From the human T2T-CHM13v2.0 reference genome, Homo sapiens: a stretch of 64,000 nt of DNA. This document shows positions 10,171 to 11,740 of the stretch, piece after piece. A model generated the notes under the pieces. That model saw only the letters and a list, made by a program, of their open reading frames with translations, searched no databases and had not been told where the DNA came from. The DNA lies in assembly GCF_009914755.1 (NCBI RefSeq), contig NC_060928.1, one strand, 5' to 3'. Position 1 is the stretch's first letter. Every line of letters begins with the position of its first letter. The translations under genes and the position numbers were made by a program.

Positions 10171-10453
10171 TTGGCAAGTGAAATAATTTAAATAAATTTA
10201 GGACACTTAGTGATTTCTATTTTGTTCATTCAGAAGAAATTTTCAAGTTCTTGCTAGGGATGCCACGTGACCTAGAGGTCAAGAGCATAGCTTTGTAGTC
10301 AGGAACTTGAGTTCCAATCTCAGCTTCAAAGATGAGATGAGCTAATAAAGTAAGTGCTCACTAAATCATACTTGTTATAGTTGTTGCCACTTTTATGATT
10401 ACAACTCTAATAAATAGCATTATCTAAGGTATTTTTAAAATTTCACTGTATTG
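10171..10453. repeat. Left arm of ~285-bp inverted repeat (partner 11452-11740)
   Basis: Hand alignment to the reverse complement of 11452-11740 gives ~84% identity, including a 42-nt exact block TGACCTAGAGGTCAAGAGCATAGCTTTGTAGTCAGGAACTTG. Confidence 0.95.
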
Positions 10454-10616
10454 ATGCATTCCCATAATATAAACTCCAAAATCCTTTCCAAGGCTTATAA
10501 GTAGGATGCCACACAAATTACCATGTAAACTCAGACATTTATGTAAATGAAAGAGAATAAACAAAAAATTAAGGTGATTTTCTCAAGGCCAGTTCAATTT
10601 AATTCCAGTTCAATTA

Positions 10617-11386
10617 CAGTTGACCCTTAAATAACACAAACTTGAACTACATGAGTCCACTTATAAGCAGATTTTCTTCCACCTCTGCCACCCCTGAGAC
10701 AGCAAAACCACCCCCTCCTCTTCCCCCTTTTCCTCAGCCTACTCAACGTGAAGACAAGGATGAAGACCTTTATGATGATCCACTTACACTTAATGAATAG
10801 TAAATATATTTTCTCTTCCTTACAATTTTCTTAATAACATTTTCTTTTCTCTAGCTTTATTGGAAGAATACAGTATATAATACATATAACATATAAAATA
10901 TGTGTTAATTGACTGTTTATGTTATCAGTAGGGCTTCCAGTCAACAGTAGGCCATTAGTTATGTTTTGTGGAAGTCAAAAGTTATACCTTGATTTTTTTT
11001 TTTTTTTTTTTTTTGAGAAGGAGTTTCACTCTTGTTGCCCAGGCTGGGGTACAATGGCACGATCTTGGCTCACTGCAACCTCCACCTCCTGGGTTCAAGC
11101 AATTCTCCTGCCTCAGCCTCCTGAGTAGCTGGGATTACAAGCTCCCACCACCACACCAGGCTAATTTTTTGGATTTTTAGTAGAGATGGGGTTCCACCAT
11201 GTTGACCAGGCTGGTTTCGAACTCCTGATCTCAGGTGATCCACCCACCTCAGACTCCCAAAGTGTTGGGATTACAGGCGTGAGCCACCGCGCCCGGCCTA
11301 TACATGGATTTTTGACTGCAGAGGAGGGAAAGTTAGGGGAACTCCCCTGAGTTCCCCCAATCCCTGAGTTGTTCACAGGTCAACTG
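10617..11386. mobile_element. Tigger2a/MER28-like DNA transposon interrupted by an Alu
   Basis: TA-CAGTTGACCCTT...CAGGTCAACTG-TA terminal inverted repeats with TA target duplication. Confidence 0.85.
10993..11298 (-). mobile_element. Alu (AluS-like) inserted in the Tigger element, intron 7
   Basis: Poly-T, full dimer ending CGCGCCCGGCC; degenerate TSD TATAC(C/A)T(T/G)GATTTT. Confidence 0.95.
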
Positions 11387-11451
11387 TATATTGCTAAATG
11401 TTTCCCCAGTTTGCAAAGCTCATGCTTATTCAAGTAGGCCTCTCAGCCTTG

Positions 11452-11740
11452 CAATAAAATGAAAATTTAAAAACTACCTTAGCTAATACTATTTATCATA
11501 GTAACAATCCTAATAGCAGCAATAACTATAATAAGTAATACTAAATGAACTCTTACTGTATATCAGCACATCTCATCTTTAAAGTTGAGGTTTGAACCCA
11601 AGTTCCTGACTACAAAGCTATGCTCTTGACCTCTAGGTCATGTGGCCTCCCTAACAAGAAAAACTAGAAACTATCTTCTGAATGAACAAAATAGGAATCA
11701 CTAAGTGACCTAAATTTATTTAAATTATCTCACTTGTCAA
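11452..11740. repeat. Right arm of ~285-bp inverted repeat, starting 32 nt after the exon 7 donor
   Basis: Reverse complement aligns to 10171-10453. Confidence 0.95.

What the first reader, a model, noticed from the sequence alone, without database searches (positions are those of the whole stretch)
10171..11740. ~285-bp non-Alu inverted repeat folding KDR intron 7 right behind the exon 7 donor
Seen: the reverse complement of 11452-11740 aligns to 10171-10453 at ~84% (about 40 mismatches and 6 gap positions by hand). The exon-proximal ~140 nt are ~92% identical and include a 42-nt perfect block. The arms are not Alu; at most a short central piece looks MIR-like, so this appears to be a local inverted duplication. 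In the KDR pre-mRNA the stem starts 32 nt after the 5' splice site. Of 22 transition differences counted by hand, ~15 give G-U pairs on the KDR-sense strand and ~7 give A-C mismatches, a modest bias toward pairing in the transcribed RNA. The ~1-kb loop is mostly later insertions (Tigger2a plus Alu, 770 bp), so the ancestral loop was ~230 nt. Inference: a long intronic dsRNA stem, resembling an ADAR editing-complementary structure, possibly maintained by selection or gene conversion.
Basis: partly seen in the sequence, partly recalled or inferred. Interest (0 to 1): 0.85.

Follow-up and report, generated by a model that had tools for sequence, protein, structure and literature searches.

The report
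Old inverted duplication in KDR intron
Intron 7 of the human KDR (VEGFR2) gene holds a roughly 290-base stretch copied once in reverse orientation about 1 kb away, so the unspliced RNA can fold into a long double-stranded stem, but its pattern of decay looks neutral and nothing here shows a function.

Summary
Bases 10164/10171-10453 and the reverse complement of 11452-11740/11745 align at 84.1% (243 of 289 columns, 40 mismatches, 6 gap columns). The exon-near 140 nt are 92.1% identical and contain a 42-nt perfect block.

The repeat is specific to this locus. In the whole T2T genome each arm finds only itself and its partner. A control query, the transposon in the loop, gave 4154 candidates.

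The KDR-sense RNA folds into about 260 arm-to-arm pairs. Duplex energy is -348 kcal/mol and z is -22.6. The stem starts 27-32 nt after the exon 7 donor.

- Arm-to-arm divergence (K2P 0.154) equals twice the divergence of the unpaired loop transposon (0.078), as neutral decay predicts.
- The G-U over A-C bias is 14:7 (p=0.19). The unpaired loop element shows the same bias, 13:8.
- Pair-breaking transversions are in excess.
- No exon is paired, so this is not an editing-complementary site.

Best reading: an old local inverted duplication that passively forms intronic dsRNA and is probably an ADAR substrate. Orthologue alignments and editing data could not be examined. Interest is low.

The parts
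11452..11745 (-). 5' arm of the stem in the KDR pre-mRNA (right arm in window coordinates), 294 nt. Its outer end lies 27 nt downstream of the exon 7 donor.
   Evidence: Alignment. The genome search finds only this arm and its partner.
10164..10453 (-). 3' arm of the stem in the pre-mRNA (left arm in window coordinates), 290 nt, 927 nt upstream of the exon 8 acceptor.
   Evidence: 84% identical to the reverse complement of the other arm.
10268..10309 (.). 42-nt block perfectly complementary to 11599-11640. With flanking wobble pairs it gives the longest uninterrupted helix, 47 bp.
10454..10615 (.). Unique spacer, left part (162 nt). It is single-copy in the genome and not complementary to the right part.
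10616..11387 (.). Tc1/mariner-type non-autonomous transposon in the loop, flanked by TA. Terminal inverted repeats lie at 10615-10638 and 11365-11388.
   Evidence: terminal repeats. (4154 genome candidates; 39 other copies scored at 82-88%). (other copies start at about 10615 and end at 11388).
10998..11298 (-). Alu inserted into the loop transposon, in the same sense as KDR. It is flanked by a 15-nt direct repeat at 10983-10997 and 11299-11313, 13 of 15 identical.
   Evidence: Rfam SRP/Alu-type matches at 11013-11297 on the minus strand. The T run and the direct repeat were read.
11388..11451 (.). Unique spacer, right part (64 nt).
11773..11950 (-). KDR exon 7. The donor GTAAGC begins at 11772 reading downward. 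The exon takes no part in the stem.
   Evidence: Hub annotation. Sequence. No inverted repeat with an arm in the exon (the 25 longest of 38 pairs).

Best explanation
A roughly 290-bp piece of KDR intron 7 was copied once, in reverse orientation, a few hundred bases to about 1 kb away. The likely cause is a replication or repair template switch, tens of millions of years ago. The two copies have since drifted apart at the neutral rate. Because both lie in one intron, the pre-mRNA can fold them into a roughly 290-bp imperfect duplex (about 88% paired) that loops out about 1 kb. Such a duplex is the kind that nuclear ADAR1 edits promiscuously, and it leaves with the spliced intron. Shown: the duplication, its uniqueness, its foldability and its neutral-looking decay. 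Inferred: the mechanism of origin, the age, the editing, and the lack of effect on splicing.
For: - Each arm finds only itself and its partner in the 3.1-Gb genome: 2 candidates in each. The same tool gave 4154 candidates for the loop transposon and scored 40 of them, 39 of which were other copies at 82-88% identity. A repeat family of similar age would therefore have been seen.
- Homology stops sharply at all four borders. The spacer halves and the outer flanks are no more complementary than shuffles (scores 8 and 9; 79% of 300 shuffles do as well). The left spacer is single-copy.
- Neutral clock: arm-to-arm K2P is 0.154. Twice the divergence of the local loop transposon from the majority of 29 other copies is 2 x 0.078 = 0.156.
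- G-U-making to A-C-making transitions on the sense strand are 14:7 in the arms (binomial p=0.19) and 13:8 in the unpaired loop element (Fisher p=1.0). An excess of A>G on the non-transcribed strand is a known mutational asymmetry (passage read in PMC5586376).
- 26 of the 40 substitutions (19 transversions plus 7 A-C) break pairs in the sense RNA.
- Folding: 260 arm-to-arm pairs in the minimum-energy fold of the whole 1582-nt stretch. Duplex energy is -348 kcal/mol in sense and -325 in antisense. z = -22.6.
- Length and pairing match the median of edited repeat dsRNAs (297 bp, 84.7% paired) in the dsRNAscan preprint (passages).
- Template switching is reported to create nearby inverted repeats (passages, PMC7954356). 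Intronic dsRNAs are reported as edited mainly by nuclear p110 and removed by splicing (passage, PMC12695637).
Against: - A uniform neutral clock does not predict this.
- The transition:transversion ratio of the arms (21:19) differs from that of the loop element (21:4; p=0.016). I cannot explain this.
- The clock value of 0.078 is biased low. The 29 copies were the best matches to the local copy, and their own mean distance to the majority is 0.113. If the higher value is the true one, the arms are somewhat more alike than expected.
- No orthologue, polymorphism or RNA data were available, so function is not excluded.
Confidence: 0.72

Rival explanations
1. Same neutral duplication, but the outer 180 bp or so were made alike again later by gene conversion between the arms. 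No function is involved.
For: Outer part about 90% identical against about 76% for the inner part, with a change point at 10340 and permutation p=0.047. A 42-nt perfect block lies in the outer part.
Against: The signal is marginal. The arms are short and already diverged, which makes conversion between them unlikely (general knowledge, recalled). Slower change in the first 150 nt or so of an intron next to an exon could lower divergence of the right arm's outer part without any conversion (inference).
Confidence: 0.13
2. The stem is kept by selection as a working RNA structure. It could be an RNA bridge that shortens the effective intron from 2536 to about 950 nt, or an ADAR or dsRNA-binding-protein platform that tunes splicing at the exon 7 donor 27 nt away.
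For: - The stem sits close to the donor.
- It is very stable and forms in the full local context.
- The sense strand is 23 kcal/mol more stable than the antisense strand.
- The exon-near part has higher identity.
- Conserved complementary pairs are reported as enriched inside introns (passages, PMC8052449).
Against: - Overall divergence fits the neutral clock.
- The wobble bias equals the local mutational background.
- Pair-breaking transversions are in excess.
- KDR does not occur in the 3 supplementary files of PMC8052449 held as text. That study masked repeats, and the files held may not be its full list.
- The hub table lists one transcript only, so there is no sign that exon 7 is alternative.
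Confidence: 0.07
3. The arms are two copies of one transposon family, either independent insertions or the long terminal repeats of a single old element.
For: - A short central stretch (arm positions about 148-225) gives weak matches of 33-53 nt at 72-82% to four other places in 160.9 kb.
- Two of those places match each other over 124 nt at 61%.
- So a fragment of some old dispersed repeat is embedded in the arm.
Against: - No third copy of the arm, or of its central 94 nt, was found in the genome, although the search finds copies at 82-88%.
- A profile of both arms finds nothing below E=0.04 in 160,901 bases.
- The arms share their non-repeat flanks and the same ends.
- I see no target-site duplication at the junctions printed.
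Confidence: 0.05

Closest known systems
Inverted-repeat Alu pairs (IR-Alu) and other inverted-repeat dsRNAs in introns, the bulk substrates of promiscuous A-to-I editing
   Same: Two inverted copies sit about 1 kb apart in one intron. The duplex is about 290 bp and 84-88% paired, matching the median edited repeat dsRNA (297 bp, 84.7%) in the dsRNAscan preprint. It is removed with the intron and so is not expected to reach cytosolic sensors (passage, PMC12695637).
   Different: The arms are not copies of a dispersed repeat family. Only these two copies were found. Editing was not examined.
Editing-complementary sequence (ECS) of site-specific recoding sites such as GRIA2 Q/R (the example is named in the dsRNAscan preprint passage; the ECS definition is recalled)
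   Same: Intronic sequence close to an exon border that forms dsRNA.
   Different: An ECS pairs with the exon that carries the edited adenosine. Here both arms are intronic and the stem starts 27-32 nt past the donor. No complementarity to exon 7 was found.
Pairs of conserved complementary regions (PCCRs) and RNA bridges in human introns (PMC8052449)
   Same: Long-range pairing inside a single intron, the configuration reported as enriched (passage).
   Different: PCCRs are defined by conservation across species and are far shorter and weaker. Conservation could not be tested here. KDR was not found in the 3 supplementary files held.
Inverted repeats made by replication template switching (PMC7954356)
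   Same: A reverse-complement copy of nearby sequence with sharp ends and a unique spacer.
   Different: That paper searches for alternate templates within tens to hundreds of nucleotides of a mutation cluster (passage); that the copied stretches it reports are themselves short is my recollection. This copy is about 290 bp, and its junctions are too decayed to show microhomology.

Membership tests
Inverted-repeat dsRNA / promiscuous ADAR substrate (IR-Alu type) | Two inverted copies within a few kb in the same transcript | tested here: met
   The arms are 998 nt apart and both lie in intron 7.
Inverted-repeat dsRNA / promiscuous ADAR substrate (IR-Alu type) | Long, mostly paired duplex that forms in the transcribed strand | tested here: met
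   260 pairs (168 A-U, 78 G-C, 14 G-U), longest helix 47 bp, duplex -348 kcal/mol, z = -22.6.
Inverted-repeat dsRNA / promiscuous ADAR substrate (IR-Alu type) | Arms are members of a dispersed repeat family | tested here: not met
   Only 2 copies were found in the genome. The positive control gave 4154 candidates.
Inverted-repeat dsRNA / promiscuous ADAR substrate (IR-Alu type) | Clusters of A-to-G mismatches on both arms in RNA-seq | not testable with these tools
   No RNA-seq or REDIportal access. One literature search listed 2 papers. Neither title nor abstract concerns editing of KDR.
Editing-complementary sequence (ECS) | Pairs with an exon that carries the edited adenosine | tested here: not met
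   No inverted repeat has an arm in 11773-11950 (the 25 longest of 38 pairs).
Editing-complementary sequence (ECS) | Conserved across species together with the edited site | not testable with these tools
   No other vertebrate genome is held.
Transposon copies or long-terminal-repeat element | Further copies elsewhere in the genome | tested here: not met
Transposon copies or long-terminal-repeat element | Target-site duplication at the ends | tested here: not met
   None seen by eye at the four junctions printed. After 16% divergence a short one could be lost.
Pairs of conserved complementary regions (PCCR) | Both sides conserved, with compensatory changes across species | not testable with these tools
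   No orthologues are held. KDR occurs 0 times in the 3 supplementary files held, which is inconclusive.
Local inverted duplication (template switch or fold-back) | Exactly two copies, in cis, inverted, with sharp ends and a unique spacer | tested here: met
Local inverted duplication (template switch or fold-back) | An ancestral state with one copy, and junction microhomology | not testable with these tools
   This needs outgroup genomes.

The most novel reading that the evidence does not exclude
The exon-near 180 bp or so of the stem are kept alike by selection on pairing, or by recurrent conversion that selection favours. A gene-private, non-transposon dsRNA would then act as an RNA bridge or ADAR platform at the exon 7 donor of KDR, tuning splicing or nuclear retention of the VEGFR2 pre-mRNA in endothelium.
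Probability: 0.06. Interest if true: 0.55.

Novelty: new member of a known kind. Interest (0 to 1): 0.17.

Why it matters
If it is neutral, as I think, it matters little. It is one more intronic dsRNA, and unusual only because it comes from a private duplication rather than from Alu.

It has three practical uses. It is a clean non-repeat locus where reads map uniquely, which suits measuring promiscuous ADAR editing of a nascent endothelial transcript. It is a caution for primer or probe design and for variant calling in KDR intron 7. It is also a small natural test of how fast an intronic palindrome decays.

Genome-wide catalogues of such structures exist: the dsRNAscan preprint predicts 5,134,754, of which about half a million are non-repetitive. 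This one is probably already listed there, but I could not check.

Tried and rejected
- **Arms as a repeat family.** Rejected by three genome searches against a positive control, and by a two-arm profile run over 160,901 bases.
- **Naming the central piece as MIR.** No repeat library is held, and a consensus from memory may not be typed. Only weak de novo evidence for an old dispersed fragment was obtained.
- **Known RNA family in the arms.** None of the 6 Rfam matches at E<=1 in 9200-12000 lies in an arm.
- **Palindrome reaching into the spacer or the flanks.** No.
- **Exon 7 pairing (ECS).** None found.
- **Wobble bias as a sign of selection.** Rejected, because the local unpaired control shows the same ratio.
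- **Age of the loop element from the literature.** The paper I wanted (PMC1832089) is not held. PMC5753468 only confirms that MER28 is Tigger2a, a Mariner/Tc1 element. PMC10030826 gave nothing useful.

Full report
**What is there**

The window is chr4:58,590,001-58,654,000 of T2T-CHM13. KDR runs on the minus strand. Exon 7 is 11773-11950, and intron 7 is 9237-11772 (2536 nt). Its donor reads GTAAGC downward from 11772 (hub table).

A gap-free repeat search over 9900-12000 found two adjoining inverted blocks. They are 10248-10347/11561-11660 (100 nt, 90%) and 10170-10252/11659-11741 (83 nt, 90%).

A gapped alignment joins them and extends inward. 10164-10453 pairs with the reverse complement of 11452-11745. 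The exon-near 10171-10310 is 129/140 = 92.1% identical. The longest perfect block is 42 nt, 10268-10309/11599-11640.

**Is it a transposon pair?**

No. The whole genome is held, and I searched it with the left arm, the right arm and the central 94 nt. Each search returned two candidates only, the query and its partner: 84% with E=1.1e-79, 84% with E=2.8e-80, and 90% with E=3.4e-27.

As a control for sensitivity I ran the same search with 345 nt of the loop element. It returned 4154 candidates. The 40 that were scored comprised the query itself and 39 other copies at 82-88% identity. A family of similar age would therefore have been seen.

A profile built from both arms and run with all filters off over 160,901 bases (the window plus 29 unrelated loci) found nothing beyond the arms below E=0.04.

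Four places give weak matches of 33-53 nt at 72-82% to arm positions about 148-225. Two of them resemble each other over 124 nt at 61%. A fragment of some old dispersed repeat is therefore probably embedded in the centre. No repeat library is on hand.

Rfam finds Alu-type signal only in the loop (11013-11297) and nothing in the arms.

In the whole 64-kb window, 13 gap-free inverted pairs of 60 nt or more lie within 5 kb of each other. Two of them are this repeat. Each of the other 11 has at least one arm in a stretch that the hub table lists as masked, and 7 have both.

**Borders and loop**

Homology stops sharply. The two spacer parts, and the 200 nt outside each arm, are no more complementary than shuffled sequence (scores 8 and 9; 79% of 300 shuffles reach them). 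The left spacer is single-copy in the genome.

The loop holds an element with 24-nt terminal inverted repeats at 10615-10638 and 11365-11388. Other copies in the genome begin at about 10612-10620 in most of the 28 loci with a match. In all 11 copies that I examined, they end at the point matching 11388-11393.

An Alu in the KDR sense sits inside it at about 10998-11298. It is flanked by a 15-nt direct repeat, 13 of 15 identical (read; Rfam).

PMC5753468 only tells me that MER28 is Tigger2a and belongs to Mariner/Tc1 (passage).

That the insertions came after the duplication is an assumption. The loop is single-copy under either order.

**Folding**

The whole 1582-nt stretch folds with 260 arm-to-arm pairs in the KDR sense (MFE -642.3 kcal/mol). 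In the antisense it folds with 248 pairs (-575.1). The arm duplex alone is -348.0 in sense and -325.0 in antisense.

With the loop element left out, the 810-nt sense RNA has MFE -390.7, against -172.0 +/- 9.7 for 25 shuffles (z = -22.6). Its helix holds 168 A-U, 78 G-C and 14 G-U pairs, and the longest uninterrupted run is 47 bp.

The stem begins 27-32 nt after the donor and leaves 927 nt to the exon 8 acceptor.

**Is pairing maintained?**

I made three tests, and none supports selection.

1. *Clock.* The arm-to-arm K2P distance is 0.154. The unpaired transposon in the loop differs from the majority of 29 other copies by 25 of 344 sites, K2P 0.078. Two lineages that each decay at that rate would differ by 0.156. 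This clock is biased low, because the 29 copies were the best matches to the local one. Their own mean distance to the majority is 0.113.

2. *Wobble bias.* The 21 transitions give 14 G-U and 7 A-C on the sense strand (two-sided binomial p=0.19). In the unpaired loop element, the transitions that would make G-U (A>G and C>T on the sense strand) outnumber those that would make A-C by 13 to 8. This is the same ratio (Fisher p=1.0). A known excess of A>G on the non-transcribed strand produces exactly this bias (passage in PMC5586376 citing Green et al. 2003).

3. *Transversions.* These can never be wobble pairs. They make up 19 of the 40 substitutions in the arms, against 4 of 25 in the loop element (p=0.016). 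That is the opposite of what selection for pairing would leave. I have no explanation for this skew. Ten of the 19 are A/T exchanges in AT-rich sequence (29-36% G+C).

**What remains open**

Identity is uneven, about 90% up to 10340 and about 76% beyond it. A change-point scan with 5000 permutations gives p=0.047.

Three readings are possible:
- a later gene-conversion tract;
- slower change in the intron's first 150 nt or so next to exon 7, which would affect the right arm only (inference);
- chance.

Only orthologues can decide, and no other vertebrate genome is held here.

**Age (inference)**

About 0.077 substitutions per site per arm corresponds to some 35-80 million years, using commonly quoted mammalian and primate neutral rates. 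The rates are recalled, not from a call.

**Comparison with known kinds**

In size and pairing the structure equals the median edited repeat dsRNA (297 bp, 84.7% paired) in the dsRNAscan preprint. That preprint predicts 5,134,754 dsRNAs in the human genome. About half a million are non-repetitive, with medians of 75-144 bp, and 96.4% of those in protein-coding genes lie in introns (passages). KDR is not mentioned in its main text. Its tables were not available.

Intronic dsRNAs are reported to be edited mostly by nuclear ADAR1 p110 and to be non-immunogenic because splicing removes them (passage, PMC12695637).

It is not an editing-complementary site. No inverted repeat has an arm in exon 7 (the 25 longest of 38 pairs).

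Conserved complementary pairs are reported as enriched inside introns (passages, PMC8052449). KDR does not occur in the three supplementary files of that paper held as text. That study masked repeats, and the files held may not be its whole list.

Template switching is described as a source of nearby inverted repeats (passages, PMC7954356).

One search for KDR together with A-to-I editing, ADAR1, endothelial and pre-mRNA listed two papers. By title and abstract, neither is about editing of KDR (listing only).

**Verdict**

The finding is a real, locus-private inverted duplication that can fold the start of KDR intron 7 into a long dsRNA. Its decay looks neutral. No function is shown, and no function is needed to explain it. 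It is a new member of a well-known kind, of low interest, with a small residual chance (about 6%) that the exon-near part is kept for a reason.

Noticed in passing
window 10157-10184: At the outer edge of the left arm a 14-nt unit is tandemly repeated: a 10-mer at 10157-10166 recurs, 9 of 10 identical, at 10171-10180. The right arm has it once. The outer limit of the homology is therefore ambiguous by about 14 nt.
   Followed up: partly
window 10998-11298 with 14612-14913 and 6543-6744: The Alu in the loop is inverted relative to Alus in intron 3 (195 nt, 83%) and intron 9 (133 nt, 77%). These pairs bracket exons 4-7 and exons 8-9. They could compete with local folding or favour back-splicing.
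   Followed up: no
window 9241-9262 and 10993-11014: In the sense RNA the A tail of the loop Alu is complementary to the U-rich tract just upstream of exon 8 (22 nt, 91%). This is probably trivial A:U pairing.
   Followed up: no
arms 10164-10453 / 11452-11745: The transition:transversion ratio between the arms is 21:19, against 21:4 in the neighbouring loop transposon (p=0.016). Ten of the 19 transversions are A/T exchanges. Unexplained.
   Followed up: partly
window 45589-45638 and L007:1342-1391: These two places share 61% identity over 124 nt with each other. Each matches about 50 nt of the arm centre. They are likely copies of an old dispersed repeat of which the arm holds a fragment.
   Followed up: partly
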